Assembly (NCBI GenBank): GCA_963805065.1
Contig: CAWDSS010000010.1
Span: 600,359 to 664,358, forward strand
DNA: 64,000 nucleotides
From: Candidatus Omnitrophota bacterium
GTDB lineage: Bacteria; Omnitrophota; Gorgyraeia; Gygaellales; Profunditerraquicolaceae
Direction: 5' to 3'
Below are positions 6,068-58,758 of the stretch, in pieces. A program made the position numbers and the translations under genes. The notes beneath the pieces were generated by a model. That model did no database searches. It had not been told where the DNA came from and worked only from the letters and a program-made list of their open reading frames with translations. Numbering within the stretch: position 1 is the first letter of the stretch; each line of letters opens with the position of its first letter.

Positions 6068-6554
6068 TTTGTTTTTCTTCCTGTTTCCTTGGCAAATACG
6101 TCGAAACCCAAGCATCTTTAGTTCGTCCTGCCTCCGTCCAATCTACCCTAATACAAACTTCCACTAATTTTTCAGTTAAATAATCCGGGCTGGATACTTC
6201 TTTTACTTCGCTTAGCCAGTTAAAATTTCTTGGGCCAATTTTGCGGGTTCCCGAATCAGATTCTAACCCGGGAGTTAAACCTTTTCTTTCGTATGAAACC
6301 AACTCCAGCTCAGCCAGTTTGTCTCTAGCAAGCTGTGTCGCGCTAATATAATTTTGGCTTGCGTTTAGAGCGCCTGCAGAAATTATGTAAGACTGGCTGA
6401 CTATAACCAGCCCAAAGCCCAGTATGGCTACGCTTATCATTAGTTCAATAAGCGTAAATGACCTCTGGGTTTTGGGTTCTAGGTTTTGGGTTCTGGGCAA
6501 GAACCTAGAACCTAAAACCCAGAACCTAATATTATTCCCAGTTCGTAATATCAT
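6054..6554 (-). CDS. Minor pseudopilin (GspI/H-like) with prepilin-type N-terminal motif
   Basis: FTLIELMISVAILGFGLV motif. The leader MILRTGNNIRFWVLGSRFLPRTQNLEPKTQRS is encoded by heptamer palindrome 6464-6528. Confidence 0.55.
   Translation of the reverse strand: MILRTGNNIRFWVLGSRFLPRTQNLEPKTQRSFTLIELMISVAILGFGLVIVSQSYIISAGALNASQNYISATQLARDKLAELELVSYERKGLTPGLESDSGTRKIGPRNFNWLSEVKEVSSPDYLTEKLVEVCIRVDWTEAGRTKDAWVSTYLPRKQEEKQNEQK
6464..6528. repeat. Heptamer palindrome
   Basis: tctgggttttgggttctaggttttgggttctggg-caa-gaacctagaacctaaaacccagaaccta; lies within the 5' coding end of pseudopilin 6054-6554. Confidence 0.9.
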
Positions 6555-12042: not shown

Positions 12043-12062
12043 ATTTTGCAGAATGAACCTTA

Positions 12063-16675: not shown

Positions 16676-16794
16676 TCTAGGTTCTAAGCTATGGCTTAGC
16701 CTTCTAAGGTTCTAGGCTATGGAATAGACTTCTGGGTTCTAGGTTATGGGTTCTGGGCTATGGGCAAAAACCTAGAACCTAAAACCTAGAACCT
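16676..16794. repeat. Heptamer/27-mer structured array abutting the atpF(b) start codon
   Basis: Contains the ~80-nt unit shared with 17144-17228 and 17472-17556, plus one extra ggttctaagctatggcttagccttct module. Confidence 0.9.
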
Positions 16795-19244: not shown

Positions 19245-19272
19245 ATTTTTTGTAAGTTGTTTGATCTATCTG

Positions 19273-29100: not shown

Positions 29101-32100
29101 CGGATTCCCGGCAATGGTAAAGGAAATTGAGCCGGCAGGAGGAGCAGTAGAATCCACCACAAATGTCCAGCTGGTAGCTTGTTCAGTCCAGTTCATTGCT
29201 GCGTCTGTAGCCTTGATTTTTACCTTGCAGTTAGCAGAGCTAATGCCAGGAGCTGGTGTCCAGGTATAGCTGCCACTATTAGTAATGCTCCAGTTTGTAG
29301 CTGTATTTATAATTGACCAGGTAGGAGAGCCGAGGTTTCCATCGGAGGCATAGTAAATTTGTATAGGAGTAGTATTTAAGCCGCTGGTAGCATCTGTAAT
29401 TGCAGTTGTTGACCAGGTAATGGCATTGGTCCCTACGGTGCCATTCCAATATGTTCCTCCTGAGGCTGGGGCAATAATAACATTGCCGTTAAATATCGGA
29501 GATGCAGTGTCCAGGGTGATGGAGCCATAGAGTGGAGAAACTATGCTAATAGTAACATTAGTTAAGCTAGGTGTATAAAGTGTATTTGCAGTTGCAAAAT
29601 AGACTTTATAGCGCAGGTATTGCTTGCCTGTAAGTACAGGGTTAATTGTAGTACCGCTTACAGTATAATAATCAGTTGTGCTCGTGGGGCCGTAGTATAT
29701 CCAGGGGCCAGTAGCACTATTGGAAGTTGCTAATTGGAATTTTAAGGCAGTTGCTTGTGATACTGTCCAGCATTGGCTGGGTATAGTTGCAGTCCAGCTT
29801 ATGGTCCACAGCTGGGCTTCGCCGCCTAAATTTACAGTTGCTGACTCAAAGGTACCGGAGGAATTATAATTAAAAGGAGTAATGGTTAAAGATCCGTTGC
29901 TTCCAGCTGCCGCACCAGCTCCAGCAATTGTAGTCCAGTTCGTGAGCGAAGTTGAACTCCAAACATACCCTGAACCTCCGCCGCCAGCTCCACCACCAGT
30001 AGCGCTGCCTGCACCACTACCGCCACCATAATATCCACCTCCACCGCCACCCGCATTATTGCCAGTACCGCCAGGTGCTGTTCCGCCAATACCAGCTGAG
30101 CCATGACTGCCAGTAACAGTACCGGTACCACCAGCGCCGCCACCAGTAGAGGTTCCACCGCTACCGCCGCCGCCAGATCCGCAGCTGCCCCCATTGGCGC
30201 CACTGGCACCACCACCAGTTCCTCCTTGAGATTGGGTTGCCCCACCTCCTCCTCCACCTCCAGCAACTATGATCGCTGTCGATGTTGAAAATGTTGAGGC
30301 TATTCCAAGCCATGTCATTCCACCACCACCACTACCAGAATAGATACCATTACTAGTTCCACCACCGCCACCACCATATCCACCAGTTGTACCAGTAGCG
30401 GGACCAGCACCTCCAACTAAAATATAATAAGTTTGTCCCGCAGTAACAGCTAGAGCTCCCGTGCTTGAGCCTCCCGCAGCACCGTAACCATAAGTACCGC
30501 CCACACCACCACCTCCGGCACCATTTGCAGTAATTTGTATGCTCCCCACCCCGCTGCTAGGCACAGTCCAGGTATAGGTGCTGGGAATAGTCCAAGTAGT
30601 AGGAGAACCACTACTCCTCAATAATAACCCCACGCTGGCACCTGCCCCTGTTCCTGTGATGGCAACATTGCTTGTCCCGGTGTTACTTAACCCTGGAGTA
30701 AACCCGTCCCAACTTGCAGGGGTATCAGCTGTGCCATCACTAGAGGCTTGTACTATCTGTGTATAGGTAACAGTCTTGGAAGTGCGTGATGATATGTTCC
30801 CTGCTCCATCCATGACCCTGACATACACAGTCTTTGTCCCGTCGGTATTGGAGAGCTTCCAGGCGCTGTTAATTGTCCAGTTAGAAGAAGAGGCAGTAAC
30901 TGCAGTCCAGGTGCCTGCTGCCCAGGTAGAGCCGCCTGTAGTAGAGTTAGTTGAGCCGTTATATACGCCCCAGGTAGAGCTGTCTTCTGAGAATTGCACT
31001 TCTAAGGTGGTAGGTACAAATGTCCAGGAGGTCCTGCTATTGTCATCAAATACACCAGCTACCTTAATTATCTGGTTATCGCCAGGTGAGGCCATGCCAT
31101 TGACATAGGTGGCTGAGCCGCCAGTAGGAGCAGTGCCATTGCCATAGATGGTAAAGCCGGTGATTGTAGGGGAAGCTGTATCGCAGGCAATGGGAGAAGA
31201 GTTACCGGAATAAGCTCCTACTATAAGGGCATTGTTCCTTGCCTTTACTTTAGCATAGTAGGTGTTATTGTTAGAAGCGCCTGTCCAGGTGTAGCTGGTA
31301 ACATTACCTACGTTTAAGTCGCTGACTTGATCTGTTCCTCCGGCAGTTGTACCTATGCAGAAGAAGTAATCCTTTATGCCGGCAACGCTATCTACAGCAG
31401 CTGTCCAGGTCCAGGTGATCGAGTTAGAGCCTGTGACCACTCCTGAAGCAACAGGAGTGCCAGGAGGAGAACTAGGCGCTGTTGAATCAATGACAAATGT
31501 CCCGCTAGTAGGCACTGTCCAGTCGCTGTAGTTCATGGCTGCATCAGTTGCTCTTAGTTTAATTTGAACGGTAGAACTGGATATGCCGGGAGCTGGACTC
31601 CAGGTATATGAGCCAGTAGTATTAGGTAAGGCTGAGGCAGTATTAATTGTCCACCAGTTTGAACCGTCAGTAGAATAATACAGGTTGATAGGCAGAGTCC
31701 AGTTAGTGCCAGTAAGGTTAGTGTCTGTAACTAAGCTAGTTGACCAGGTAATGGCATTGGTGTTTAGGGTGCCATTCCAGTAAGTGCCAGATGTAGGCGT
31801 AAGCACTGAGTTGGTTACGCTGGGTGGAGTAGTGTCCAGGGTGATGGTTTTACTTCCTATTGCTGTTGCTTCGCTTCCTAGGGAGCCTACAACAGGCGGA
31901 GAAGACAAATATTGACGGCCTAAATAATGCGCAGTAATGTCAGTTTGTGTCAGGGCGCGGCTGTATATTCTGACTTCGTCGAGAATGCCATTCCAATAGT
32001 AACCCGCAAAAGCACCGAGTGTTAAGGGTGCGGATCCATTTGTACAGCCACCACCGTAGTCGGCCACGAGAATATTGCTTTTTACTCCATTAAGATAAAT

Positions 32101-35100
32101 TTGTGTTTCGGAGTCGCAACCCGTAAATACTACTGCGACATGATACCAGGTATTTGTTGCAACAGGACTGGCGTATTCGTGTTTAAACCAAGTTCCGTTG
32201 AACAGATATGTATAAACGTCTAAATATCCATTCAGTATGTAGATGCCCCATTCATAATTACTGGTTGAGCCTTTCCCCATAACTGAGTAGATATTAGTCA
32301 CGTCACTACCAGTTTTTACCCAAAACTCTGTAGAAAGAACTCCCGTAGTATTAATGGAAAAGGCATCTTGGTCAGAAATGGTTACATAATTACTGCTGCC
32401 ATTACCTTGGAATGCGCTGCCAAATTTTCCGGCTGTTGTCCAATAACTAGAGCCCTGCATTGTTCCAGTATAGCTTTTTCCGCTTGTATCAGCAGTACTT
32501 GCACCACTCCCCTCATTCAACAGCCATTCTCCTTTTAATCCAGTATCTCCATTATACGAATAGCTTGTGCTGGAATTAGCAGTATTAGCATAACTACTGG
32601 AGCTTGTGGCGCTGGGGTTTCCGTAATACATATAAATTGTAGCACCGCTGGTAGGTATTGAATCTACTTTAACCCAGAAACTAGATGTACCAGTACTACT
32701 CCAGGATTCAATCCAGTAAGGTAATTCCTGCATGGTTGAAGGATTGTAGAATCTAATATCTGATCCGTTACTATTTACATTAGTATAAGGGGACCCCATT
32801 GTAGCAGTGGTAAGGCTTACATTAACCTGATAACTAGTTTGGGTTGCTCCCGATGAGTTAGTGATCGGAATAGCTCTATTGTATTTCCAGGTGCCGCCAC
32901 CGGCATTAGATAAGCTGCTAGATACGGGGCTATATAAACCAACATTCTCCGCTGCATCACGTGCTCTGACATAAATGCTCTTTGCAGCGTCGCTACCTTC
33001 CAAATACCAGGCGCTACTAATTGTCCAGGTGGTAGGCGAGGTACTAGTATTAACTGTGGTCCAATTAGTCCAGTCAGCAGCTTTATTATTTGTCGTGCCT
33101 GAGCCGGAATAAACGCCCCAGTTAGTGCCGTCTTGAGAGAATTGCACTTGCAGGCTCGTGCTTGTATTATCAGAAGACACGCCTACCGCCTTAATTAGCT
33201 GTGCATCGCCGGGTGAAGCCATGCCATTGACATAGGTAGGTGAGCCGCCATTCGGAGCAGCGCCGTTGCCATAGATAGTGAAGTTGGTAAGTGTGGGTGC
33301 GACCAAACCAATTTGGAATGGGCCAAGGTCAGCTGTCCCTACGGCGGGAACACCTTCGCCATTATAACCTTGAAGGTGCAGATAATACTGGCCTGAGGCG
33401 CTGGCGATTCGAGTTAAGGTTGAGCTTGACCAGACATTTCCGTCTCCAGCCCAAGTATGAGTGTTATTTGTATCCCAAACATATTTATAATAAGCAACTC
33501 CACCTGAACCAAACGGTAGGTTATTGGTAAAAACCCAGGTGGCGGTATTAGTCCAGGTGCTGCTTGTAGGGGTTACGTTCCAGCTTGCAGAGGGAATTGC
33601 ATAGGTGTATTTTGCGGTGGTTGAGGTAGCATTAGTCGAAACACCATTGCCGTTTTGTGCAGCCACAGACCAAATATACTGTTGGTTACTGTTAAGCCCA
33701 CTTACTACTTTACCAGAAGCTCCACCCCAGCCAGCTGAAACAGTTGTCCACACTGCCGAGGCACCTAAGGTGCCATTACCTTGGACATAATATCCGGCTC
33801 CTGTTCCGCCCCCCATATTCTCTATGGCATAATTAGTATTAGCGGGGTTCGCAGGAGTCTCGGCTACATAAGTTATAGTCATGCCTGTAGTAGAAATATT
33901 GGATACTGCCCACGCCGACGGAGTATTGGCAAGAGAATATAGAGGTTCAATGGAAGCTGTCTGTGCAGTGTTGCTTGTCCAATTTGCACTTGAGCCTGTA
34001 TCATATAAATAAGACCAAACACGGTAACAATAAGGAGTGTTATAGCTGACGGAGGCGTCATCAGAGGTGACTGTGCCTGAGCCTGGGCTGGGATAAGTCC
34101 AGGAATAATCAGTCCAGCTATTTGTGCAACTTAACCCATCACTAGAACCGCAACGCTCTACCCTGTAACCGGTTGCGGTTGATACAGCAGACCAGTTAAC
34201 AGTAAGCTTGTTGGGCTGGGGCAGAGTTGACGGAACACTGATAGAGCAAGCAGATGGCGCGCTGGGAGGAATTACCGTATAAGTTATCGTCCAGTCCGTA
34301 ATATCGCGCTCATTGGCAGAATCTGGGTTAATAGCCATAGTATTGCTATCATCCAAAGTCAACCTTGTCCATAATGCCCGGCCATTTTGGTTTATGGTAT
34401 AGGCAGTGCCACGCGTAATAGGATTAACCGTGGTAACCGCGCCAAATGCTGCGGTAGTTGCATCTGCCACAGCATATTGCAACCCCACTGCGCCTGTATT
34501 GGCAGTAGTCCAGTTTATGGCAATAGAACTCCAGGTTGTATTTAGGCCACGGTCATATAATTTAGAATAATAACCTTTGGAAACTGGTAGAGCGTTGATA
34601 GAGGCGTAGAGCACGTCGGTGGCGTAAATGCCCATACCCCAAACCCCTCCCATGATATACACATAGCCATTGTAGGCTACTGAGCTGTGGCGCGCCCTTG
34701 ATGATCCGATTGCTACCTTGCCAAAATAGCTGGTGGTAGCCCAGGGACCCAAGGTGCCGTTTGAGTTAATAGGGGCGTAGAGCACGTCGGAGAAGGTAAT
34801 GTATGAAGACAGTAAACCTCCTCCTATGATATACAGATAGCCATTGTAGGCTACTGTGCTTTGGTCCGCCCTTTGTCCAGATCCTACGTTGGCAAAAGAG
34901 CTAGTGGTAGACCAGGTGCCTAAGGTGCCGTCGGCGTTAATAGAGGCGTAGCCTACTTTAGAGCTGTAGCCAGTTGAAACTCCTACGATATATATATATC
35001 CATTGTAGGCAGCTGAGCTGAGGTATTCGCTTCCTATCGCGCTAAAATTGCTGGTGGTAGACCAAATGCCTAAGGTGCCGTCGGCGTTCATAGAGGCGTA

Positions 35101-38100
35101 GAGCACGTCGGAATAGTTTGAGCTACCGACACCTCCCATGATATACAAATAGCCATTGTAGACTACTGAGCTGTGGTTATGTCTTGCCCCGCTTCCCACG
35201 CCGCTAAAAGAGCTGGTGGTAGACCAAATGCCTAAGGTGCCGTCGGCGTTCATAGAGGCGTAGAGCACGTCGGAATAGTTTGAGCTACCCCTACCTCCCA
35301 TAATATACAGATAACCATTGTAGGCTGCTGAGGTGTGGCCATACCTTGCGACTCCTGCCCCGCTAAAAGAGTTGGTGGTAGACCAGGTACTTATGGTGCC
35401 GACGGCGTTCATAGAGGCGTAGAGCACGTCGGAATAGTAGTTGCTGGCGCCGTTATACCCTCCCATGATATACAGATAACCATTGTAGGCTGCTGAGGAC
35501 GGGTACTCCCTTGTACTTACACCGTCTAAACCGCTATAATTACTGGTGGTAGACCAGGTGGTGAGGTTTCCTCCCGGCCCCAGCGGGGCGTAGAGCACGT
35601 CGGATAAATAGGCGGTGTTAATACCTCCCATGATATACATATAGCCATTGTAGACTGCTGAGCTGTGGTACGATCTTGCTCCGCCTCCTACGCCAGTAAA
35701 AGAGCTGGTGGTAGTCCAGTTAGCCAGGGTGCCGTCGGAGTTGATAGAGGCGTAGAGTGTGTCGGCGAGGAAGGTGCTGCTATAGCCTCCCATGATATAC
35801 ATATAGCCATTGTAAGCTGCTGAACTGTGGACATACCTTGCTCCGCCTCCTATGCCGGTAAAAGAACTGGTGGTAGTCCAGTTGTCGAGAGCGCCAGTGC
35901 CGTCGGATTTTATGTGTGCGTAGAGTGTGTCGGCGAGGGCGACGCCGCAATTACCTCCCATGATATACAGATAGCCATTGTAGGCTGCTGAGCTGTGCAT
36001 AGATCTTGCTCCGCCTCCTCCTGCTGCACTGTTAAAAGAGATGGTGGTAGTCCAAGTGCCAAGGGTACCAGTGGAGTTTATGGAGGCGTAGAGGACATCG
36101 GAGAGGGAGTTGCCGCTTTGATTGCTCCCTCCCATAATATACAGATAGCCATTGTAGGCTGCTGAGCTGTGGTACGATCTTGCTCCGCCTCCTCCTGCTG
36201 CACTGTTAAAAGAGATGGTGGTAGTCCAGTTAGCCAGGGTGCCGTCGGAGTTGATAAAGGCGTAGAGGACATCGGAGAAGCGGTTGGCGCTTTGATCCAT
36301 CCCTCCCATGATATACATATAGCCATTGTAGGCTGCTGAGCTGTGGTGCGATCTTGCTCCGCCTCCTCCTGCTGCACTGTTAAAAGAGATGGTGGTAGTC
36401 CAAGTGCCAAGGGTACCAGTGGAGTTTATGGAGGCGTAGAGCACGTCGGAGATGTAGTTGCCATTACAACCTCCCATAATATACATGTAGCCATTGTAGG
36501 CAACTGAGGCATGTCGTCCCCTTGCTCCGCCTCCTCCTGCTGCACTGCCAAAATAGCTGGTGGTAGTCCAGTTCCCCGTGCCGCCGGGAGTAAATGGGAC
36601 GTAGAGAGTGTCGGATAAGCTAGAGCCATTCCAACCTCCCATGATATACATATAGCCATTGTAGGCTGCTGAACAATGCATATTCCTTCCTCCGCTACCT
36701 GCATTGCCAAAATAGCTGGTAGCAGCCCAAGTACCCAGGGTGCCATTAGAATTGATAGGGGCATAGAGGACATCGGAGAAGTAAGCAGCGTCGAATGAAG
36801 CATTATTCCCCCCTACGATATACATATAGCCATTATAGGCTATTGAACAATGTATATTCCTTCCTCCGCTACCTGCATTGCCAAAATAGCTGGTGGTGGT
36901 CCAGGTAGCCAGGGTGCCGTCGGAGTTGATAGAGGCGTAGAGGACATCGGAGAAGCCAATACCGTTCCAAGTGTCAGTAGTACCTCCCATAATATACATA
37001 TAGCCATTGTAGGCAACTGAAGTATGGGCATCCCTTGCTCCGTTGCCTTTGCCAGTAAAAGAGCTGGTGGTGGTCCAGTTAGCCAGGGTGCCGTCGGAGT
37101 TGATAGAGGCGTAGAGTGTGTCGGAAAGATAGGTACCGTTAGTACCTCCCATAATATACATATAGCCATTATAGGCTGCTGAGGTATGTATGCCCCTTGC
37201 TCCGCTTCCTCCACTTACGCTGCCAAAAGAGCTGGTGGTAGTCCAGTTGTCGAGAGCGCCAGTGCCGTCGGATTTTATGTGTGCGTAGAGTGTGTCGGAG
37301 AGATAGGTACCGTTAACACCTCCCATGATATACAGATAACCATTGTAGGCTGCTGAGGTGTGGCCATACCTTCCTCCGCTTCCTCCTGCTGCACTGTTAA
37401 AAGAGATGGTGGTGGTCCAGTTAGCCAGGGAGCCGTCGGAGTTGATAGAGGCGTAGAGGACATCGGAGAAGTAGTTAGACCAGTTGCTAGTTCCTCCCAT
37501 AATATACAGATAGCCATTATAGGCTGCTGAGCTGTGGTAATACCTTACTCCGCTTCCGCCGCTTACACTACCAAAATTGCTTGTGATAGCCCAAGTGCCA
37601 AGAGCCCCTGTTGCCGGAGTTTTGCTTCTGATAATTGGTGCACCGGAGGTATTATAGGAAATCATTCCCTCATTATTCCCGCCTCCTCCAGTGGACTTAA
37701 AGTCTGCTACAGTGACGATGTGCACAGAGGGATCAATGCTTATAGGATAATTCAAGTTCCTATAATTCTTAACTTCCAAAATCAGGGACACCCTCGATTC
37801 CAAAGCAGGGACACCCTGCTTTCCAATCGGAAGGCTGTCCCCTTTGGGATTGGTAATCTTGTAGCTGGCTAAATCTTTTCTTTCTTTGCCGTTTGCCTCC
37901 CTTATTATAGGTAAGGGAATTGTATAGAGAAGCTCTGTTTTGGGAGCGTTCTTTCGCGCCAGCTCAATTAATTTGGCGCTTTTTTCATCACCTATCTGAA
38001 TATCACCCCAGAGATATTGGCTGGGCCCGTAAATTCCAATTGAGCCGTCCTGTTCCTGTTTTGCCACTAAATTATTATCCAGTTCCAATTGCCAGCTTAA

Positions 38101-38664
38101 ATTAACTTTTTTGTAATCGCGGCTGCTGGCAACCACAATATCTTCTCTTACGCCGTTATCCAGTGGAGTATAAATAATTGCCTGCCCCTGTCCGAAATTA
38201 TACACTACTCTTCCATTACGCAACTGGGAGCTGAATTTACAATTTTTGTATAAAGCCTTCATAACAAAACCAAACGCAGAATCATCGCGCTTAACCCAAA
38301 CCCTTCCTGCGTACTGAGCAAATGTGGCCTGGAATTTTACTTTAGCCAGCTCGTTGACGGACACAGATGCGCCTTGTTTTTGCGCAGGCGCGGTTTGCAA
38401 ATCGGCATTTTTGAAAACGTAGCTGTCTTTTTCTTTGGCCAGCGTGCCTTTAGTAGGCATGGGCAGGAAGCCTTCGGCAAAGCTTATCAGCTTTTCTCCC
38501 CGCACTTCTTTGGCTGTGGTTTTTAGTTCATTAAAGGTAGCATAGAATCCCAGCGCCAGGCCTGCTCCTAAAAATAAGATCGTCGCCAAACCCACTGTTA
38601 CAGTTTTTGCCAAATGCATTTTTCCTTGTTTGTCTTTTAGCATTTCTTTAATAGTGGTTTGCAT
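20176..38664 (-). CDS. Giant (6162-aa) membrane-anchored multi-repeat surface protein
   Basis: Uninterrupted 18,489-nt ORF with GAGGAG 7 nt upstream of the ATG. Contains an N-terminal signal-anchor helix (VTVGLATILFLGAGLALGFYA), 18 Kelch-like repeats, FN3-like units, DUF2341+LamG, a glycine-rich domain, dozens of ~85-90-aa Ser/Thr/Trp-rich Ig-like repeats and a coiled-coil C-terminus. Confidence 0.85.
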   Translation of the reverse strand: MQTTIKEMLKDKQGKMHLAKTVTVGLATILFLGAGLALGFYATFNELKTTAKEVRGEKLISFAEGFLPMPTKGTLAKEKDSYVFKNADLQTAPAQKQGASVSVNELAKVKFQATFAQYAGRVWVKRDDSAFGFVMKALYKNCKFSSQLRNGRVVYNFGQGQAIIYTPLDNGVREDIVVASSRDYKKVNLSWQLELDNNLVAKQEQDGSIGIYGPSQYLWGDIQIGDEKSAKLIELARKNAPKTELLYTIPLPIIREANGKERKDLASYKITNPKGDSLPIGKQGVPALESRVSLILEVKNYRNLNYPISIDPSVHIVTVADFKSTGGGGNNEGMISYNTSGAPIIRSKTPATGALGTWAITSNFGSVSGGSGVRYYHSSAAYNGYLYIMGGTSNWSNYFSDVLYASINSDGSLANWTTTISFNSAAGGSGGRYGHTSAAYNGYLYIMGGVNGTYLSDTLYAHIKSDGTGALDNWTTTSSFGSVSGGSGARGIHTSAAYNGYMYIMGGTNGTYLSDTLYASINSDGTLANWTTTSSFTGKGNGARDAHTSVAYNGYMYIMGGTTDTWNGIGFSDVLYASINSDGTLATWTTTSYFGNAGSGGRNIHCSIAYNGYMYIVGGNNASFDAAYFSDVLYAPINSNGTLGTWAATSYFGNAGSGGRNMHCSAAYNGYMYIMGGWNGSSLSDTLYVPFTPGGTGNWTTTSYFGSAAGGGGARGRHASVAYNGYMYIMGGCNGNYISDVLYASINSTGTLGTWTTTISFNSAAGGGGARSHHSSAAYNGYMYIMGGMDQSANRFSDVLYAFINSDGTLANWTTTISFNSAAGGGGARSYHSSAAYNGYLYIMGGSNQSGNSLSDVLYASINSTGTLGTWTTTISFNSAAGGGGARSMHSSAAYNGYLYIMGGNCGVALADTLYAHIKSDGTGALDNWTTTSSFTGIGGGARYVHSSAAYNGYMYIMGGYSSTFLADTLYASINSDGTLANWTTTSSFTGVGGGARSYHSSAVYNGYMYIMGGINTAYLSDVLYAPLGPGGNLTTWSTTSNYSGLDGVSTREYPSSAAYNGYLYIMGGYNGASNYYSDVLYASMNAVGTISTWSTTNSFSGAGVARYGHTSAAYNGYLYIMGGRGSSNYSDVLYASMNADGTLGIWSTTSSFSGVGSGARHNHSSVVYNGYLYIMGGVGSSNYSDVLYASMNADGTLGIWSTTSNFSAIGSEYLSSAAYNGYIYIVGVSTGYSSKVGYASINADGTLGTWSTTSSFANVGSGQRADQSTVAYNGYLYIIGGGLLSSYITFSDVLYAPINSNGTLGPWATTSYFGKVAIGSSRARHSSVAYNGYVYIMGGVWGMGIYATDVLYASINALPVSKGYYSKLYDRGLNTTWSSIAINWTTANTGAVGLQYAVADATTAAFGAVTTVNPITRGTAYTINQNGRALWTRLTLDDSNTMAINPDSANERDITDWTITYTVIPPSAPSACSISVPSTLPQPNKLTVNWSAVSTATGYRVERCGSSDGLSCTNSWTDYSWTYPSPGSGTVTSDDASVSYNTPYCYRVWSYLYDTGSSANWTSNTAQTASIEPLYSLANTPSAWAVSNISTTGMTITYVAETPANPANTNYAIENMGGGTGAGYYVQGNGTLGASAVWTTVSAGWGGASGKVVSGLNSNQQYIWSVAAQNGNGVSTNATSTTAKYTYAIPSASWNVTPTSSTWTNTATWVFTNNLPFGSGGVAYYKYVWDTNNTHTWAGDGNVWSSSTLTRIASASGQYYLHLQGYNGEGVPAVGTADLGPFQIGLVAPTLTNFTIYGNGAAPNGGSPTYVNGMASPGDAQLIKAVGVSSDNTSTSLQVQFSQDGTNWGVYSGSGTTNNKAADWTNWTTVNTSTSPTTWTISSAWYLEGSDAAKSIYVRARDAAENVGLYSPVSSSLSNAGGGTWKYNRAIPITNSSGATQTSYQVNVSLTTATMGSPYTNVNSNGSDIRFYNPSTMQELPYWIESWSSTGTSSFWVKVDSIPTSGATIYMYYGNPSATSSSSYANTANSSTSYSYNGDTGLKGEWLLNEGSGASTADTSGKSYTGTMQGSSYWTTAGKFGSAFQGNGSSNYVTISDQDAFSINTTGVLSTEFWVKTGSDVTNIYSVMGKGSTSNYEWGIYILNGYLDVYTYLFNGTWFKHEYASPVATNTWYHVAVVFTGCDSETQIYLNGVKSNILVADYGGGCTNGSAPLTLGAFAGYYWNGILDEVRIYSRALTQTDITAHYLGRQYLSSPPVVGSLGSEATAIGSKTITLDTTPPSVTNSVLTPTSGTYWNGTLNTNAITWSTSLVTDTNLTGTNWTLPINLYYSTDGSNWWTINTASALPNTTGSYTWSPAPGISSSTVQIKLRATDAAMNYSDWTVPTSGTFVIDSTAPSSPPGTPVASGVVTGSNSITWTWTAAVDSVAGIKDYFFCIGTTAGGTDQVSDLNVGNVTSYTWTGASNNNTYYAKVKARNNALIVGAYSGNSSPIACDTASPTITGFTIYGNGTAPTGGSATYVNGMASPGDNQIIKVAGVFDDNSRTSWTFVPTTLEVQFSEDSSTWGVYNGSTNSTTGGSTWAAGTWTAVTASSSNWTINSAWKLSNTDGTKTVYVRVMDGAGNISSRTSKTVTYTQIVQASSDGTADTPASWDGFTPGLSNTGTSNVAITGTGAGASVGLLLRSSGSPTTWTIPSTYTWTVPSSGVGSIQITANGAGGGGVGGTYGYGAAGGSSTGALAVTAGQTYYILVGGAGPATGTTGGYGGGGGGTSNGIYSGSGGGGMTWLGIASTFSTSTAIIVAGGGGGGGATQSQGGTGGGASGANGGSCGSGGGGSGGTSTGGGAGGTGTVTGSHGSAGIGGTAPGGTGNNAGGGGGGYYGGGSGAGSATGGGAGGGGSGYVWSSTSLTNWTTIAGAGAAAGSNGSLTITPFNYNSSGTFESATVNLGGEAQLWTISWTATIPSQCWTVSQATALKFQLATSNSATGPWIYYGPTSTTDYYTVSGTTINPVLTGKQYLRYKVYFATANTLYTPSLTNVTISIVSPLYGSITLDTASPIFNGNVIIAPASGGTYWNGTVGTNAITWSTTAITDATSGLNTTPIQIYYASDGNLGSPTWSIINTATNWSITNSGSYTWTPAPGISSANCKVKIKATDAAMNWTEQATSWTFVVDSTAPPAGSISFTIAGNPSSIYQYVSSASGPIYYNTGGTSGSFRIIATAQDPVSGIQKITFPGLAGFSTGNTAFDVTSSGTTWTANYTWTANSTQNGSVSFTVTNNAGLTTVSNNFSVIQDLTAPASFSLTSPTSSIWTTSTTPAFSWSASSDAGSGLGKYQLYVNGSVNKDNISATWTTGSTITANTINPGIYTWSVAAVDNVNNSQASTQTWTIKITNLGITAPAAGTSWTANTNSNITWSTAGFNEPLDILYSSNGTNWTVDNSTCWTIATNQSGTSYTWTITGDQIATATNSAQIKLQPTSITALNNVAWTTSAGFTVKGVRVTAPNTGSEMWVVGDTNRNITWTSTGLIPSTPIDLYYSSDGGTDWTTIDTQQANLGTYNWYSIPNDVSNNCLVMVSMHGATVSDTSNSAFKIVSPPSITIQSPNSGSSWRMGTNQTIAWTTDYAAANQITIWYTSDGITWTNIGTGTVANPQPTGVSDTQANSTSWTIPELSAATSNAQIKITYASRSEISPTTNWTAVSNTFAIPSSTISLNAVTSPQIAGDTWTITWTTVGTKAATANLYYATDFNPTTPTSATWTLIGQETNNGSYAWVIPTAYSSTSYGLKIEDSNNPSTVYDYTKNAFTVRYPTITLNPFPLSTEPEDSDGAITLVQNDARSITWTTERNLGNNIEIDCISGATVLWSVAGLTDNGSYVWTIPAAAVGTNRQIRIEDGSTPARTQGIQALSYVFKVLNNAKFRVDTPAAGVRIIGGKTYSSVTWTNIGDKANPTNSPAVTIKYVENGVAQTPNLANSSVNSGTYNWNVWLAPSTNAQIEIISNADNTITGTSSAFTVAANITTVLPASGTTWTLGTSNNQISWSTVGKITQVKVEYSPDGSTWTVPNASYTNWTVDNTDPNDSNITLLTTGTYDNNFTKSYYWTVPNNDAYISSGASQIRITGTRAPAINGSDPTNISVTLPITIAVPKISNVTLTQPLGADALYVGDTATISWTWVGNLSSGNSVKVSYTNNNGTTWTACSGAGALANTTASFNWTIPSDAVSINQTQIKVEDTDSSRSASLGQSSTAYTVKAQPSITITSPTGTPQWQVGKGYSITWTASAGVNDGHVQLRANTSDMGWTVLTTTAAQNGTYFWTVPQAALLWTNSTSAGLIEVSDASRAGSAVLGAVVSPDAAWTAIAPQITINSPSSSNNWAVATANLISWSTSGAVSQVNISYDLSYGAGTSWSTIATNLANTSNGSTSWTWTIPDDIGATSVKIVDASRSTVVTKTSGEFNLVGSITLAQPPNVVVNDSVNITWTSAGTFTPVNLQLSTDGSNWYDMNHTAQNSFTQVPNSGSSGSFSWTIPNAITSTAQVRIYDPNYPSVAVSTSNPFNIGTQPTLTITSPLTNPSWRVGSAGNTITWTGSANANDNINVEYSTNSGTNWTAIATGQPRGYPSAASFSWTVPQAALGAAATNASAQLRIRDMTRTQTQMTNTLLPQVTITQPAITVGNLSGYQVVTETPAITWSTAGGEGSATYAATIQYNSTSGGGSFTNVSGGASVTSNSNGTSTFTWTVPNDVGASQIKVFDSYRQSTTAATSNSFTICGMFNNVNLSGSAVTAGSALTINWTTTGRIDQANVELIYYRDGDVNLTSAQTISSADLSSWNIGNSSGSCVWTVPTTVDASYINTALRIRIIDTRVPTDSTSYKDTTTTFQINGSVSAPNPPALGASWTVGTGNVITWTTTGNITRVKLLYTTNASAGTPTWTVLNASANWSVTPNANAATNYTWTVPDNISSDCKIQVEDANDLTVSATSGTFNIKGNLNLISPVGGENWTIGTTHNITWTTTAGSASMATVKLEYSTDYGTSWTTVVESYDTLNDGIVGNTGSFSWTIPADYSIGNQQVCLVRVSQPNGLSNVSVSPSAFIIALPAIGILQPNGGEELTQYQTYNLGYSDQVNPTGGIKWTNTGTVGNVKIEWCPDYTTNQTWATIESNWPNNGAYYNFSPATVTATARIRISDAANPSVVAVSNANFSVLPPPMITSINHPTTTDAWIMGTTQTISWTKQGLVSDNLLLEYSYDNGVTYSQIYSGAMHGATSYNWAIPNSFAITSDSPARVRITDSGNSATPVEVSAQWTVKIPTVSMIRPNGGEVWAVGDLAPIAWTTQGSITANALQIAYSTNSGQNYAAPFANSLANSGTYTWTVPAIVQGINERLRVMDGSRPNSSGASVANFTVIAAPTIATFLTPPPNGVAYVVEDPMTINWTIRGLAIDHVAIDYWNDADQDGSLDGTETATVIAVNIPKGTSDTADAYSGSYTGSYTWTVPDNATATSTLKMRVRGYDSNGNLLATAVSPGWFRITGGFDFRDETVNSEEFLNSTDWKANTLHSITWYNKGAFPSLKLEYRTATDQSTLPLASWTTINSFTNVPNANNISGYAWTVPDPNFANLPAEPPADYYVQLRVSSTSDATIFAVSPAFTISYYTLTWRIRDDETMTLLTTGLGVDSSGGGSTYWNVIVGALDVATGSTTFTWRYPQGTYTTIWSKSGYYDTSDVDRIVSQDALVDVLMESTTPKEYRVQSSFSYNEDTNTLMIRLWLEKQGYLVVSDSINALGSATVAVSYGSSTLWTATAASADPTTGSYFIQVPNATTTGGLESGKTYFANCSISYGGTSGTRSTYTSGATFDISISEQLKQMTQMIQTATDAINTTTAAIANQTQSIQKTIQDSVVNAIQPQVSAITQQTSQILTATNTAIPNAITAAQNNITGTLNTEIKPQVQSGILNRDTAVKSGQAVIISYRTTTGLSPTIDVYDPKNMLKISKGRMIENGTSGVYDYTVTFLAGWGTGDFTVVCSETTKGTVDAQVITVYNTDIADVAGQVSAVLGSTTGITGLKSVADTLNSQFNLVDDALTKLSQGLTGKAEQAQGVLTQVETVYKQLDDISAQIDKMSGAGGINLKKLYEVAKEKKDDMVYLKNKTEELKAAMDLNSKMVENVAKKPVVQTWFEFK
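29880..30600 (-). other. Glycine-rich domain of the giant protein
   Basis: WTVPSSGVGSIQITANGAGGGG...GQTYYILVGGAG...AIIVAGGGGGGG...GGGSGYVWS. This resembles the bacterial/ALK-type 'glycine rich protein' domain; the DNA is runs of ccacc/gccgcc. Confidence 0.55.
31920..32900 (-). other. DUF2341-like plus LamG-like (concanavalin-A-type) module of the giant protein
   Basis: DIRFYN...LPYWIESW...FWVKVDSIP...IYMYYGN matches the DUF2341 pattern. It is followed by GEWLLNEGSG...WYHVAVVF...LDEVRIYSRALTQTDI, the Laminin_G_3 pattern. Confidence 0.65.
34590..37640 (-). other. Kelch-like repeat region of the giant protein (18 repeats)
   Basis: The motif (A/V)AYNGY(L/M)YI(M/V)GG recurs 18 times at ~47-55-aa spacing, each followed by SDVLYA.INSDGTL..W.TTS.F. 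This is consistent with three 6-bladed propellers (inference). Confidence 0.7.
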
Positions 38665-38680: not shown

Positions 38681-40099
38681 TTAGGAATTAGGTTCTGGGT
38701 TCTGGGTTTTAGGTTCTATAACTACTTTCGGTTCTACTTCCACGAACGGCCGAACCCTGACCCAGTCAAAATAAACGCTGCCTGCATTAACCAAGGCAGC
38801 ATCTGCTTTTAAACCGATATAGTCTTGCTCCAAACCGCCCACATCTAAAAATTGTATTTCTGCTTCTTTCTTGTAATTTTCACTGTATCTTTCAAATATA
38901 ATGCCGTCTTCATTTACGATTACCTTATATATATAATAAGTAAGAGGTGTTATGGGCTTACCGATATTTAGCTTGGCTACGCCATTAATGGCAATGGTAT
39001 GCTCTGCTCCGGGATAATTTGAAGAATAAACTATTACTTCGATGGGCAAAGTTTTTTGGTTTGTAACTTTTTCGCGCAGCACTGCCTGAATACTGGCATT
39101 GTCTTGCGCCTTGGCTTTAAATTCCAAAATCCCTTGTTTCATTGTAAAATCGCGCGAAAGAATCAGGCAATCCTTAAGCTGCAATTGGCCGTCTTTTAAA
39201 TTATATTCTTTTTTCAGTCCGGGCAGCACCTGCCATTTTGTCTCATCTAATTTCGCTTGGCTAAAATCATCGAAGAGCGGGAAGACTTTATTGGCATCTA
39301 AATATTCAGGGACAGTCCCCTGCGGGGGCAGCCCCTGTTTATCTCCGCAATAAAGATAAATGGTTATGCCTTCTTTGGGAATCTGGGGTATCTTGACCCA
39401 GCAATTATCATATTGGGTTCTAGGTTCTAGGTTCTTGGTGTTCGCATAATCCCCAGAACCTAGAACCGAAAACCTAGAACCTTCTTCTAAATAGTAGTAC
39501 AGAGGCGTCTGGCCATCTGCAGCAGTAAAATAAACATCCCTTCTATCCAAATTTATTTTCACGGGATAATTAAAGAGCTCCTCATTTGAACCCGCAATAA
39601 AAATCGGCTTATGATATTTAAATTTGTAGATGTCGGGGTTGCGGAAGATTTTTTTTACCCCTGATGAATCTGTAAACCCAAGGGTAATTTTTTTCAAGAT
39701 ACTGCCTTGGGGAATATTGACTTTAAAACACAAGGTATTTCCCGCAATAAATCCGTCAGTCAAAGGTTTTCCATTAATTATTTTTGTGTAAGAAGTGCCT
39801 GCGTTAGCGCTGACTTCCAGAGTAACCTCACCTTCAAAATCGTAAGAGGCAGAAATGGTTTTTATTGTGCCTGCAGTTTGAATAGGCGCAGATTCTATTG
39901 TGGTAGGGCCGGCTAAATTGTATTCAAAAACCATAGGGACAGTCCCCTTCGCTTCGCTCGGGGACAGTCCCTGAGCCTGCGCCTGAAGGGTGAGCCCCGC
40001 GCTTAACACTCCCACAATTAACCCAATAGTATATTTATTCATTTTCTCCTCTTCTTGTATGTCCATATAAAATATACTATTTATCATTGTTAATATCAA
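38681..40099 (-). CDS. Secreted DUF2341/LamG-like protein (paralogous to a module of the giant protein)
   Basis: Signal peptide (IGLIVGVLSAGLTLQAQA). DUF2341-like PLYYYLEE...CWVKIPQIPKEGITIYLYCGD, then a concanavalin-like FDDFSQAKLDETKWQVL... domain. Its stop lies 16 nt before the giant gene start. It contains in-frame heptamer palindrome 39413-39482 and has a heptamer-encoded C-terminus. Confidence 0.6.
   Translation of the reverse strand: MILTMINSIFYMDIQEEEKMNKYTIGLIVGVLSAGLTLQAQAQGLSPSEAKGTVPMVFEYNLAGPTTIESAPIQTAGTIKTISASYDFEGEVTLEVSANAGTSYTKIINGKPLTDGFIAGNTLCFKVNIPQGSILKKITLGFTDSSGVKKIFRNPDIYKFKYHKPIFIAGSNEELFNYPVKINLDRRDVYFTAADGQTPLYYYLEEGSRFSVLGSGDYANTKNLEPRTQYDNCWVKIPQIPKEGITIYLYCGDKQGLPPQGTVPEYLDANKVFPLFDDFSQAKLDETKWQVLPGLKKEYNLKDGQLQLKDCLILSRDFTMKQGILEFKAKAQDNASIQAVLREKVTNQKTLPIEVIVYSSNYPGAEHTIAINGVAKLNIGKPITPLTYYIYKVIVNEDGIIFERYSENYKKEAEIQFLDVGGLEQDYIGLKADAALVNAGSVYFDWVRVRPFVEVEPKVVIEPKTQNPEPNS
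38689..38718. repeat. Heptamer run at the 3' coding end of the DUF2341/LamG gene
   Basis: taggttctgggttctgggttttaggttcta, read as EPKTQNPEPNS-stop. Confidence 0.85.
39413..39482. repeat. Heptamer palindrome inside the DUF2341/LamG gene (in-frame)
   Basis: ttgggttctaggttctaggttcttgg-tgttcgcataatcc-ccagaacctagaaccgaaaacctagaacc, read as SRFSVLGSGDYANTKNLEPRTQ. Confidence 0.9.
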
Positions 40100-40154: not shown

Positions 40155-40233
40155 TTGGGTTCTGGGTTCTGGGTTCTGGGCTGTAAATATTGACCGGGTT
40201 TTAGCTAGAACCGAAAACCTAGAACCTAGAACC
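40155..40233. repeat. Heptamer palindrome upstream of the DUF2341/giant-gene operon
   Basis: ttgggttctgggttctgggttctggg-23 nt-ctagaaccgaaaacctagaacctagaacc. Confidence 0.9.
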
Positions 40234-41563: not shown

Positions 41564-41617
41564 TTGGGTTCTAGGTGTTCGACTCTCTATTATTACTTCT
41601 GGGTTCTGGGTTCTTGG
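41564..41617. repeat. Heptamer units (GGTTCT orientation) between the RR start and the four-helix-bundle gene end
   Basis: ttgggttctaggtgttc ... cttctgggttctgggttcttgg. Confidence 0.85.
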
Positions 41618-41805
41618 TAATCATTTACATGTTGCCTGGTTTTTCCTTCTGCAATGTTTGAAGAAATAGAAACAGCGCATCTTCTCATTTGATTAATCAA
41701 GCCGTACATTTCCTCTTTAGGAAAATCTTTGGTAAGTATATAAACTTTTTTAACGAACTCTATGGATTTTTTCCAAACTTCCAAGTCTTTATAGCTTTTT
41801 ATCAC
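41593..41805 (-). CDS. Four-helix-bundle protein (23S rRNA intervening-sequence protein family), truncated
   Basis: SYKDLEVWKKSIEFVKKVYILTKDFPKEEMYGLINQMRRCAVSISSNIAEG matches the N-terminal half of the family. The ORF ends in heptamer-encoded YQEPRTQK, so about half the usual length is missing. GTG start. Confidence 0.55.
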   Translation of the reverse strand: MIKSYKDLEVWKKSIEFVKKVYILTKDFPKEEMYGLINQMRRCAVSISSNIAEGKTRQHVNDYQEPRTQK

Positions 41806-41817
41806 TTCTAATTATCC

Positions 41818-41849
41818 CCCAGAACCTAGAACCTAAAACCTAGAACCTA
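41818..41849. repeat. Heptamer units (AGAACC orientation) between the HK stop and the four-helix-bundle gene start
   Basis: cccagaacctagaacctaaaacctagaaccta; includes the HK stop codon (TAG). Confidence 0.85.
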
Positions 41850-43206: not shown

Positions 43207-43317
43207 TGGGTTCTAGGCTATGGTTTAGACTTCTGGGTTCTAGGTTCTCGGCTATGGCTTAGACTTCTGGGTTCTAGGTTCTCGTGCTAGAACCTAGAAC
43301 CTAAAACCTAGAACCTA
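43207..43317. repeat. Heptamer/27-mer structured array filling the secretin-HK spacer
   Basis: Two ggctatgg(y)ttagacttctgggttctaggttctcg modules plus a terminal palindrome arm. The array spans from the secretin stop codon to the HK start codon. Confidence 0.9.
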
Positions 43318-58682: not shown

Positions 58683-58758
58683 GTTTTAGGTTTTGCGTTG
58701 CAGTTTTGCCTTTTTCCTTTTTACTTTTACCTTTTTGCTTTTTACTTTTTCCTTTTTA
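58683..58758. repeat. Second heptamer family, long run
   Basis: gttttaggttttgcgttgcagttttgcctttttcctttttacttttacctttttgctttttacttttt, which encodes the carB tail [23 protein letters not shown]. Confidence 0.85.

What the first reader, a model, noticed from the sequence alone, without database searches (positions are those of the whole stretch)
39413..39482. Heptamer palindrome inserted in-frame into a surface loop of the DUF2341/LamG protein
A 70-nt (GGTTCTA)n...(TAGAACC)n palindrome is read through as SRFSVLGSGDYANTKNLEPRTQ without a stop. Aligning with the paralogous module in the giant protein (WIESW-SSTGTSS-FWVKV versus YYLEE-GSRFSVLGSGDYANTKNLEPRTQYDN-CWVKI) places the extra ~20 residues exactly in the loop between two conserved strands. 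This is evidence for an insertion that preserved the frame.

The same gene also ends in heptamer-encoded EPKTQNPEPNS (38689-38718). Together with the pseudopilin leaders, this shows the repeat family colonises coding DNA while keeping ORFs open.
Basis: seen in the sequence. Interest (0 to 1): 0.6.

Follow-up and report, generated by a model that had tools for sequence, protein, structure and literature searches.

The report
In-frame palindromic repeat inside protein loop
A 66-base hairpin-forming repeat, one of about a dozen copies in this stretch of an Omnitrophota genome, sits exactly in frame in a floppy loop of a secreted protein; it is a bacterial case of selfish DNA becoming part of a protein, and it looks like a shrunken relative of the 'intervening sequence' elements known from ribosomal RNA genes.

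Summary
Window 39416-39481 is a 66-nt palindrome built from GGTTCTN heptamers, with 24-nt arms that are 88% complementary. It lies inside the minus-strand DUF2341/LamG gene (38681-40042) and is read as 22 codons, GSRFSVLGSGDYANTKNLEPRT. Only one of its six frames is open, and that is the frame used.

About 30 of 47 scorable orthologues have a 4-5 residue loop at this position. One orthologue has the empty site GAA GAA|CAA, which matches both window flanks, with no target-site duplication. Removing the 22 residues restores a full-length Pfam DUF2341 match. In an AlphaFold model the insert is the only internal segment with pLDDT below 50, and it lies between two strands. A second assembly reproduces the sequence exactly.

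New findings:
- The same loop carries inserts from at least four different repeat families in other Omnitrophota.
- A distant orthologue pair carries the same 66-nt insert at the same codon boundary. Whether this reflects one event or two is unresolved.
- The element shares both inner junctions with a neighbouring cassette (41567-41847), whose heptamer arms flank a truncated S23p/23S-rRNA-IVS-protein gene. It therefore looks like an ORF-less miniature of an IVS-like cassette.

In kind this resembles Rickettsia palindromic elements. I found no published description of this element family.

The parts
39416..39481 (-). 66-nt in-frame palindromic element, 22 codons (GSRFSVLGSGDYANTKNLEPRT). Plus-strand layout: left arm 39416-39436, CGAACACC junction 39437-39444, relic SD+ATG (GGGGATTATG on the coding strand) 39445-39454, right arm 39455-39481.
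38681..40042 (-). Host gene: secreted DUF2341 / ConA-like (LamG/GH16-fold) protein, 453 aa, with a signal peptide ending in AQA. It lies between the response regulator and the 6162-aa giant protein.
38684..38718 (-). Half-element (AGAACCN heptamers) that encodes the C-terminal tail EPKTQNPEPNS just before the stop codon.
40158..40233 (.). Intergenic copy of the family, just upstream of the gene. It shares a 23-nt exact stretch, including the GGTTTTC variant unit, with the in-gene copy.
   Evidence: (D2)
41567..41847 (-). Cassette at the histidine-kinase|response-regulator junction. Inverted heptamer arms flank a truncated S23p/23S_rRNA_IVP gene (41617-41808). It shares both inner junctions (GGTTCTGGGG(G)AT... 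and CGAACACC[T/A]AGAACC...CAATATG) with the 66-nt element.
43209..43315 (.). Intergenic family copy (secretin|kinase junction) with an extra 34-nt module.
16680..16793 (.). Intergenic family copy in the ATP synthase gene region. Sister copies lie at 17148-17226 and 17476-17554.
5990..6048 (-). Family copy encoding the stretch upstream of the N-methylation motif of a T2SS-J-like pseudopilin (RFWVLGSRFLPRTENPEPRTQRS|FTLLE).
6468..6526 (-). Family copy encoding the stretch upstream of the N-methylation motif of a T2SS-I-like pseudopilin.

Best explanation
The 66-nt palindrome is a copy of a dispersed, non-autonomous repeat family. It landed at a codon boundary in a short, permissive loop of the DUF2341 domain of a secreted protein.

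It survives because three conditions are met together:
- its length is a multiple of three;
- the one open frame among its six is the frame it sits in;
- the loop tolerates 22 disordered residues.

The most likely reading is that the peptide has no function of its own and is selfish or neutral DNA carried as protein.

The element itself is most likely an ORF-less miniature of an 'intervening-sequence-like' cassette, that is, inverted arrays of GGTTCTN heptamers around a small S23p/IVP four-helix-bundle gene. It keeps the cassette's arms, the ribosome-binding site plus ATG, and the 3' junction, and has lost the gene.

Status of each step:
- Shown: the insertion, the frame, the loop position, the family, the junction identity with the neighbouring cassette, and the recurrence of inserts in this loop across orthologues.
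- Inferred: the direction of derivation (cassette to miniature); the way it moves (no target-site duplication is seen and no transposase is known); any effect of the roughly -33 kcal/mol mRNA hairpin, such as RNase III cleavage as in rRNA IVSs.

Confidence in the in-frame insertion of a repeat-family element is about 0.9. Confidence in the IVS-cassette origin is about 0.6.
For: - Family and palindrome.
- In-frame, with only 1 of 6 frames open and length 66.
- Orthologues: 30 of 47 scorable have the short loop. The closest relative P0005 has an empty loop and no heptamer elements in 21 kb.
- Exact empty site GAA GAA|CAA in P0003.
- Pfam domain restored on deletion of the insert.
- AlphaFold model with pLDDT below 50 only at the insert among internal segments, between two strands.
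- Second assembly (Logan, ERR10755942) identical over 1962 nt including the element.
- Cassette link in the window: 41617-41808 matches PF05635 at 81.7 bits and is flanked by the same arms and the same junction motifs.
- Cassette link in L004: an intact IVP gene lies between GGTTCTA/TAGAACC arrays, and three in-gene miniatures in its DUF2341 orthologue match the arm next to that IVP gene.
- Cassette link elsewhere: an Acidobacteriota locus has an IVP gene between GGTTCTN arrays. Many IVP homologues have called ORFs that run into such arrays, for example ...SLREPRTYHLEPRT and MNNSFSVFGFWFSVLG....
- Literature: the Coxiella IVS has an S23p ORF, a 28-bp terminal inverted-repeat stem, tandem heptamers of variable number next to the start codon, and RNase III excision (PMC4990558).
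Against: - No target-site duplication and no transposase were found, so the mobility mechanism is unknown.
- The specific spacer was not found elsewhere in JGI metagenome contigs.
- Only three candidate proteins among 5.8 billion share words with the insert peptide, and none reached E <= 10. This sub-type is therefore not visibly spreading.
- The distant orthologues P0033/P0038 carry the same 66-nt insert at the same boundary, at 86% identity against 63% gene-wide. This could mean a conserved, possibly functional feature rather than junk.
- Only 1 of 32 cross-phylum heptamer palindromes has an IVP gene within 8 kb.
- One IVP locus (L040) shows heptamer arrays in direct rather than clearly inverted orientation.
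- The SD+ATG relic is only 10 nt long and could be coincidence.
Confidence: 0.8

Rival explanations
1. One ancient insertion was kept by selection in two lineages and precisely lost in the others. On this reading the loop peptide or the mRNA hairpin is functional, for example as a processing or pausing site or as a surface epitope.
For: - The window and P0033/P0038 have the same boundary (after LE[EK]), the same length (66 nt), the same stop-avoiding C in unit 2 and a similar spacer.
- The insert is 57/66 identical between them, against 63% gene-wide and 47% at third codon positions. It is among the best-conserved 22-codon windows of the gene.
- The P0033/P0038 loci have no other copies of the family in 2 x 21 kb.
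- The insert peptide shares words with only three candidate proteins in the database.
Against: - The window protein groups with empty-loop orthologues to the exclusion of P0033, with quartet bootstrap 0.86-1.0. A single gain would need at least 4 precise losses in a 37-leaf clade.
- In L001/L002 the right arm has decayed (TAGCACC) without compensating changes. The hairpin is weaker (-25 kcal/mol, z -3.3) and the peptide has changed (E>A, R>S), which argues against selection on either.
- Between L001 and L002 the insert is not unusually conserved.
- The loop offers only about 6 codon boundaries and the element has a single open frame. Two independent hits at the same boundary are therefore not very improbable.
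Confidence: 0.25
2. The hairpin has been taken over as a regulatory RNA element inside the operon: an RNase III or other processing site, or a translational pause, that tunes DUF2341 and giant-protein expression. This does not exclude a selfish origin.
For: - The sense strand forms a stem of about 25 bp at -33 kcal/mol.
- Sibling copies sit at nearly every gene junction of the same co-directional cluster.
- S23p-type IVS stems are RNase III substrates (PMC4990558).
Against: - There are no expression data.
- Most orthologues do without it.
- The hairpin is decaying in L001/L002.
- Rfam has no match.
Confidence: 0.15
3. The sequence arose in place by slippage or expansion of native codons (TTAGAA resembles the unit CTAGAAC) rather than by insertion of a pre-formed element.
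For: - Heptamer arrays are slippage-prone.
- The native L-E codons (TTAGAA/CTAGAA) and the native C-terminal VEVEP codons (GTAGAACC) resemble the unit.
Against: - Slippage does not make an inverted repeat with a spacer.
- The spacer and both junctions match the cassette at 41567-41847.
- A 23-nt exact match exists to the intergenic copy at 40205-40227.
- The empty site is clean.
Confidence: 0.04
4. The palindrome is an assembly artefact, produced by fold-back or a chimeric join at a repeat.
For: Palindromes and dispersed repeats are classic sources of misassembly.
Against: - The reading frame is kept and the protein aligns on both sides.
- An independent Logan assembly of run ERR10755942 is identical over 1962 nt.
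- A different MAG has the homologous insert twice.
Confidence: 0.02

Closest known systems
Rickettsia palindromic elements (RPEs; Ogata et al. 2000, as reviewed in PMC10969869)
   Same: Both are dispersed palindromic repeats found in intergenic DNA and also in frame inside unrelated protein-coding genes. In both cases the insert adds a peptide at a position compatible with the fold, and the host ORFs stay open.
   Different: RPEs are about 100-150 bp, belong to defined Rickettsia sequence families and encode a conserved peptide. This element is 66 nt, is built from tandem heptamers, comes from Omnitrophota, and is related to cassettes that carry an S23p/IVP gene.
23S rRNA intervening sequences with an S23p ORF (Coxiella, Leptospira; PMC4990558)
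   Same: Both have terminal inverted repeats that form a stem of about 25-28 bp, and tandem heptamers next to the ribosome-binding site and start of an S23p/PF05635 gene. In Coxiella the heptamer number varies between strains. The ORF degrades over time; here it is truncated in the window cassette and absent in the 66-nt element.
   Different: Classical IVSs sit in helix 25 or 45 of 23S rRNA and are cut out of the RNA by RNase III. Here the cassettes sit at gene junctions and the miniature sits inside a protein-coding gene, where it is translated. RNase III cleavage was not tested.
Bacterial MITEs and small mobile sequences found intragenically (ERIC/RU, Correia, BOX; Delihas reviews PMC3184786, PMC2759123)
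   Same: All are small, multi-copy, hairpin-forming and mostly intergenic, with occasional in-frame intragenic copies that add peptides.
   Different: No target-site duplication is seen at the filled versus empty site. The larger relatives carry a four-helix-bundle gene, not a transposase. The arms are tandem heptamer arrays rather than unique terminal inverted repeats.
REP/BIME elements mobilised by RAYT (IS200/IS605-like) transposases
   Same: Both are short imperfect palindromes at gene junctions, and both insert without a target-site duplication.
   Different: There is no GT[AG]G head motif. No RAYT gene was seen in the DNA available. The heptamer-array architecture also differs.
Cyanobacterial STRR heptanucleotide tandem repeats (from memory, not checked here)
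   Same: Both are tandem 7-nt units dispersed in non-coding DNA.
   Different: The unit sequences and the phylum differ. STRRs are not described as paired inverted arrays around an S23p gene.

Membership tests
RPE-like in-frame palindromic insert (functional class) | Multi-copy palindromic repeat family in the genome | tested here: met
   41 hits against 0.04 expected. About 12 elements in 64 kb. Hairpins with z from -4 to -8.
RPE-like in-frame palindromic insert (functional class) | The copy lies inside an ORF, in frame, and the ORF stays open and homologous on both sides | tested here: met
   66 nt, and only the used frame is free of stop codons.
RPE-like in-frame palindromic insert (functional class) | The insert sits at a position compatible with the fold (surface loop) | tested here: met
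   pLDDT is below 50 at residues 208-229, between strands 202-205 and 231-240. The Pfam domain is restored when the insert is removed.
Rickettsia RPE sequence families (RPE-1 to RPE-10) | Sequence belongs to one of the Rickettsia RPE families, about 100-150 bp | tested here: not met
   The length is 66 nt, the architecture is heptamer arrays and the host is Omnitrophota. No direct alignment to RPE consensus sequences was possible.
MITE | Terminal inverted repeats, small size, many copies | tested here: met
MITE | Target-site duplication flanking the element | tested here: not met
   Filled site GAA GAA|GGTTCT...GAACC|CAA against empty site GAA GAA|CAA in P0003. No duplicated bases, and the boundaries are unambiguous.
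MITE | Cognate autonomous element with a transposase and the same ends | tested here: not met
   The larger relatives with the same ends carry a PF05635 S23p/IVP gene, not a transposase. Only 64 kb of the genome was available.
S23p-type intervening sequence (IVS) | Terminal inverted repeats that form a long stem | tested here: met
   Stem of about 25 bp at -33 kcal/mol. Compare the 28-bp stem in Coxiella (PMC4990558).
S23p-type intervening sequence (IVS) | S23p/PF05635 ORF in the loop | tested here: not met
   The 66-nt element keeps only GGGGATTATG and CGAACACC. The sibling at 41567-41847 has a truncated ORF (profile positions 1-57 of 106, 81.7 bits). Intact ORFs are present in L004, L002, L020 and L042.
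S23p-type intervening sequence (IVS) | Tandem heptamers adjacent to the S23p start codon | tested here: met
   Window cassette, L004, L042 and L020. Described for Coxiella in PMC4990558.
S23p-type intervening sequence (IVS) | Located in helix 25/45 of the 23S rRNA gene | tested here: not met
   It lies in a protein-coding gene or at gene junctions. Rfam finds only four tRNAs and no rRNA in the window.
S23p-type intervening sequence (IVS) | Excised from the transcript by RNase III | not testable with these tools
REP/RAYT | Conserved GT[AG]G head motif and an associated RAYT gene | tested here: inconclusive
   The motif is absent from the element sequence. The presence of a RAYT gene elsewhere in the genome could not be examined.
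DUF2341 (PF10102) protein | Pfam match above the gathering score | tested here: met
   47 bits, or 55.6 bits after removal of the insert, against a cut-off of 23.4.

The most novel reading that the evidence does not exclude
S23p/IVP four-helix-bundle genes bracketed by inverted arrays of GGTTNTN heptamers may form a cross-phylum class of mobile cassettes. These would be the free-living relatives of 23S rRNA intervening sequences. They insert without target-site duplication at gene junctions. They also give rise to ORF-less miniatures that repeatedly colonise permissive protein loops, leader peptides and C-termini. The S23p protein (Avd-like, nucleic-acid binding) would be the factor that recognises the heptamer arrays.
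Probability: 0.3. Interest if true: 0.75.

Novelty: new variant of a known kind. Interest (0 to 1): 0.55.

Why it matters
- It is a clean bacterial case, outside Rickettsia, of selfish palindromic DNA becoming part of a protein. A matching empty site, a structural model and a restored domain match all support it.
- One small loop of a single protein family has been hit by at least four unrelated repeat families. That makes the family a natural test case for separating insertion bias from survival in permissive sites.
- The link to S23p/IVS cassettes bears on an old open question: where 23S rRNA intervening sequences come from, and what their conserved ORF and heptamers are for. The link makes that question testable in genomes where these cassettes are abundant.
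- Practically, such inserts inflate and fragment domain matches and create spurious ORFs in Omnitrophota annotation.

Tried and rejected
- Rfam gathering scan of the whole window: only four tRNAs, nothing on the elements.
- Literature search for the 13-mers: none of the four 13-mer strings occurs in any paper of the library, and the only hits were to the bare 7-mers. Searches for heptamer + four-helix-bundle, STRR and Omnitrophota repeats gave nothing specific.
- Metagenome scan for the element's spacer: two hits, both unrelated chance matches without heptamer arrays.
The 44-aa concatenate gave 3 word-sharing candidates, none scoring.
- Exhaustive representative search with the whole protein: 357 relatives, but no further carrier of the insert.
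- Test for a recombination tract around the insert between the window and L001/L002. Identity peaks at the insert and at the universally conserved DGQTPLYYYLE just upstream, but the downstream flank is not closer. No tract could be shown.
- Test for constraint on the insert between L001 and L002: 63/66 identical, but 15% of windows in the gene are as good, so there is no signal.
- IVP genes near the 32 cross-phylum palindromes: only one locus, L020. Most such palindromes are therefore ORF-less, or the link is loose.
- Inverted-repeat scoring of 100-nt IVP gene flanks against shuffles was clear for L004, L002 and the window cassette (z 4.7-11), weak for L042 (z 2.4) and absent for L040. For L020 the arrays lie outside the flanks used and were confirmed by eye.
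- Site-specific targeting as the explanation for the shared insertion point was considered and down-weighted. The loop has only about 6 codon boundaries and the element has one open frame.
Full report
**1. The observation**

On the plus strand, 39416-39481 reads GGTTCTA GGTTCTA GGTTCTT GGTGTTCG CATAATCCCC AGAACCT AGAACCG AAAACCT AGAACC.
- Tandem Repeats Finder reports period-7 arrays at 39416-39439 and 39455-39482.
- The repeat finder pairs them as 24-nt arms that are 88% complementary and 18 nt apart (I4).
- The 13-mer GGTTCTAGGTTCT, with at most one mismatch, occurs 41 times in the window against 0.04 expected from shuffles.
- Clustering the units gives about a dozen elements, most of them full palindromes.
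- Both strands of the element fold at about -33 kcal/mol, z about -6.

The element lies inside the minus-strand ORF 38681..40099. The called product is 453 aa from the ATG at 40042, and it is 100% identical to a database protein on a 1.19-Mb NCBI contig. On the coding strand the 66 nt read GSRFSVLGSGDYANTKNLEPRT. Of the six frames only this one is free of stop codons, and 66 is a multiple of three. The second unit on the coding strand is GGTTTTC. A canonical GGTTCTA there would give an in-frame TAG. The same variant exists in the intergenic copy at 40205-40227, which shares 23 identical bases (D2).

**2. It is an insertion**

The protein search returned 86 proteins (the query itself plus 85 orthologues); every one that carries a source name is from Omnitrophota.
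- In a 41-sequence alignment most read YYYLE-(4-5 residues)-[CYF][YW]VKVPQIPKEG, and the window has 22 extra residues.
- Of 47 sequences where the loop could be delimited by pattern, 30 have the short loop.
- The orthologue P0003 gives a matching empty site: TTG GAA GAA|CAA GGT AAT, against the window's TTA GAA GAA|66 nt|CAA TAT GAT. The boundaries are unambiguous and there is no target-site duplication.
- With the insert present, Pfam DUF2341 matches only profile positions 27-83 (47 bits). After in-silico removal of the 22 residues it matches positions 2-83 (55.6 bits).
- An AlphaFold2 model built on the orthologue alignment has mean pLDDT 76.9 and pTM 0.79. It has pLDDT below 50 at residues 1-51, 208-229 and 465-472 only. 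The insert is residues 207-228 and lies between strands 202-205 and 231-240.
- The C-terminal half has a ConA-like/GH16-like jelly-roll fold.
- A Logan assembly of run ERR10755942 is an exact substring of the window over 1962 nt, including this element and the one upstream. An assembly artefact is therefore very unlikely.

**3.

- The C-terminal tail IEPKTQNPEPNS is encoded by AGAACCN heptamers running up to the last two codons before the stop, and orthologue tails differ.
- Two pseudopilin genes (T2SS J-like and I-like) carry a full palindrome directly upstream of the N-methylation motif (RFWVLGSRFLPRT[EQ]N[PL]EP[RK]TQRS|FTL[LI]E). The only ATG starts lie upstream of the elements. A TTG in the hairpin loop is a possible alternative start.
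- Heptamer stretches also occur in an atpC-like ORF (17291-17317) and a pyrK-like ORF (56471-56504). The atpC-like ORF aligns to its Pfam model end to end without a gap, so there the heptamers add no net length.

**4. The loop is a hotspot**

Other orthologues carry inserts from different repeat families in the same loop:
- GLSPSEASGTVPE, from a GGGACNGTCCC palindrome pair (P0002, P0004);
- IASSPAAPRND...VIANPPKAGEAI, from a GC-rich palindrome (P0011, P0025, P0029, P0037, P0040);
- SPPLVGGV repeats (P0064);
- a related heptamer element (P0006).

P0006's gene has three such inserts in three different loops. The same kinds of peptide also appear after the signal peptide, in the loop after IYxYYG and at the C-terminus. 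The simplest reading is a survival filter. These genomes are full of small palindromes, and only copies that land in frame in permissive loops persist.

**5. An unresolved point of history**

P0033 and P0038 come from two contigs of one MAG, GCA_043813305.1, with the same kinase-regulator-DUF2341-giant-protein synteny. They carry a 66-nt insert at the same codon boundary, with a similar spacer and the same stop-avoiding C.
- Evidence that suggests a shared or constrained insert: it is 57/66 identical to the window's, against 63% gene-wide and 47% at third codon positions.
- Evidence for separate events: the window protein groups with empty-loop orthologues to the exclusion of P0033 (NJ tree; quartet bootstrap 0.86-1.0). 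One gain would therefore need at least four precise losses.
- Evidence against selection in the other lineage: in L001/L002 the right arm has decayed to TAGCACC without compensation and the hairpin is weaker. No other family copies occur in 42 kb. The insert is not unusually conserved between the two contigs.

Two independent hits seem somewhat more likely to me than one old, conserved insert. The loop has about six usable boundaries and the element has one open frame. The data do not decide between these.

**6. What the element is**

At the kinase|regulator junction (41567-41847) the same arms flank a truncated gene of the 23S-rRNA-intervening-sequence-protein family. It matches PF05635 at 81.7 bits over profile positions 1-57 of 106, and is 79% identical to an intact gene at the same junction in locus L004.

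Read on the coding strand:
- the cassette is GGTTCTGGGGGATAATTAGAAGTG-[ORF]-...GAGAGTCGAACACCTAGAACCCAATATG;
- the 66-nt element is GGTTCTGGGGATTATG-CGAACACCAAGAACC...CAATATG.

The two inner junctions are shared. The 66-nt element therefore looks like the cassette with its ORF deleted.

Supporting cases elsewhere:
- In L004 the intact gene is flanked by GGTTCTA.../...TAGAACC arrays, and the three in-gene miniatures match that arm.
- L002 has an intact gene at the same junction with different heptamers (GATACTA/TAGAATC). L001, L003 and L045 have the junction empty. The cassette is thus polymorphic for presence and absence.
- A Vicinamibacterales (Acidobacteriota) locus has an IVP gene between GGTTCTN and NAGAACC arrays.
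- Among the closest 120 of more than 7900 IVP homologues, many called ORFs run into such arrays at either end. DNA of L042 confirms this.
- Exact GGTTCTAGGTTCT...AGAACCTAGAACC palindromes occur in representative genomes of Bacteroidota, Acidobacteriota, Proteobacteria, Chloroflexota and Patescibacteria, among others. Only one of these 32 loci has an IVP gene nearby.

The Coxiella IVS has been described with the same anatomy: an S23p ORF, a 28-bp terminal inverted-repeat stem, tandem heptamers of variable number next to the start codon, and RNase III excision (PMC4990558).

**7. Comparison with known systems and novelty**

Functionally this is the phenomenon described for Rickettsia palindromic elements and for some enterobacterial small mobile sequences, namely in-frame palindromic inserts that are tolerated in proteins (PMC10969869; PMC2759123 and PMC3184786).
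- It is not a member of the RPE sequence families.
- It fails two MITE criteria: there is no target-site duplication and no transposase-bearing parent.
- It shares the anatomy of S23p-type IVSs but not their location.

I found no description of heptamer-armed S23p cassettes outside rRNA, nor of this repeat family. None of the four 13-mer strings occurs in any paper of the searched library.

I rate it a new variant of a known kind. It is of moderate interest as it stands. It would be of higher interest if the cassette-to-miniature model and a role for S23p in recognising the heptamers were confirmed.

Noticed in passing
window 39306-39335 and 39933-39971 (inside the same DUF2341 gene): A second mini-repeat family is present. 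The palindrome GGGACAGTCCC occurs three times in the window, against 0.01 expected, and all three copies are in this one gene. It is read in two frames, as GLSP and GTVP (QGLSPSEAKGTVPM after the signal peptide; QGLPPQGTVPE in the loop after IYLYCG). The same peptide fills loop 1 in orthologues P0002/P0004 and follows the signal peptide in P0003.
   Followed up: partly
orthologue proteins P0011, P0019, P0023, P0025, P0029, P0037, P0040, P0064 (alignment A1): Other Omnitrophota orthologues carry GC-rich palindrome-derived peptides (IASSPAAPRND...VIANPPKAGEAI, VIASPE.AKQS, SPPLVGGV) in the same loops. At least four unrelated repeat families have therefore colonised this one protein family.
   Followed up: partly
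window 41617-41808 (-); L004 2974-3327; L002 8866-9261: An S23p/23S_rRNA_IVP (bAvd-like) gene cassette is present at the 5-nt histidine-kinase|response-regulator junction in three lineages. It is truncated in the window and has different heptamer arms in L002. It is absent in three others (L001, L003, L045). In the filled sites the kinase stop codon TAG is the start of the first heptamer.
   Followed up: partly
L005-L036 (genome-contig hits): Palindromes made of the very same GGTTCTA/TAGAACC heptamers occur in genomes of many phyla (Cyclobacteriaceae, Bacteroidia, Acidobacteriota, Gammaproteobacteria, Rickettsiales, Chloroflexota, Patescibacteria, Brevundimonas). There are several copies per genome in some, for example 6 loci in OZ244400.1.
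   Followed up: partly
window 17230-17469 (-) and 56044-56790 (-): The atpC-like (epsilon subunit, 79 aa) and pyrK-like genes contain runs of 3-5 perfect heptamers (SSEPRTQNQ; GNGFSVLGSRLSVLVAGG) with no net change in length relative to their Pfam models. It looks as if native loop codons were replaced or converted rather than added to.
   Followed up: partly
window 15880-15965, 16890-16920, 19265-19415: Another inverted-repeat family is present: GAAGAAAAGGGGACGTTTC / GAAACGTCCCCTTTTCTT arms (tandemly doubled) with (TTGTCAT)n / (AATGACA)n heptamer arrays outside them.
   Followed up: no
window 7092-7120, 7663-7697, 12062-12095, 58704-58757, 47323-47360: Further heptamer arrays with other units ((G/C)TTTTNC and AACCNAN) lie at or near gene boundaries. 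Heptamer periodicity seems to be a general feature of this genome's junction repeats.
   Followed up: no
window 34646-37557 (inside the 6162-aa ORF 20176..38664): About 17 tandem copies of a 174-nt (58-aa) unit encode Kelch-like YNGY[LM]YIMGG blades near the N-terminus of the giant protein. That protein also contains a DUF2341 + LamG module and a Gly-rich region.
   Followed up: no
window 53834-53865: A perfect (GTTCTTGA)x4 octamer tandem repeat.
   Followed up: no
window 40312-40912 (-): Two small ORFs (147 aa and 67 aa) lie between the response regulator and the DUF2341 gene. They are absent from that position in L001-L004, where the two genes are 35-175 nt apart. The 147-aa product has a weak DUF6036 hit in the Logan annotation. 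This may be a small inserted gene pair.
   Followed up: no
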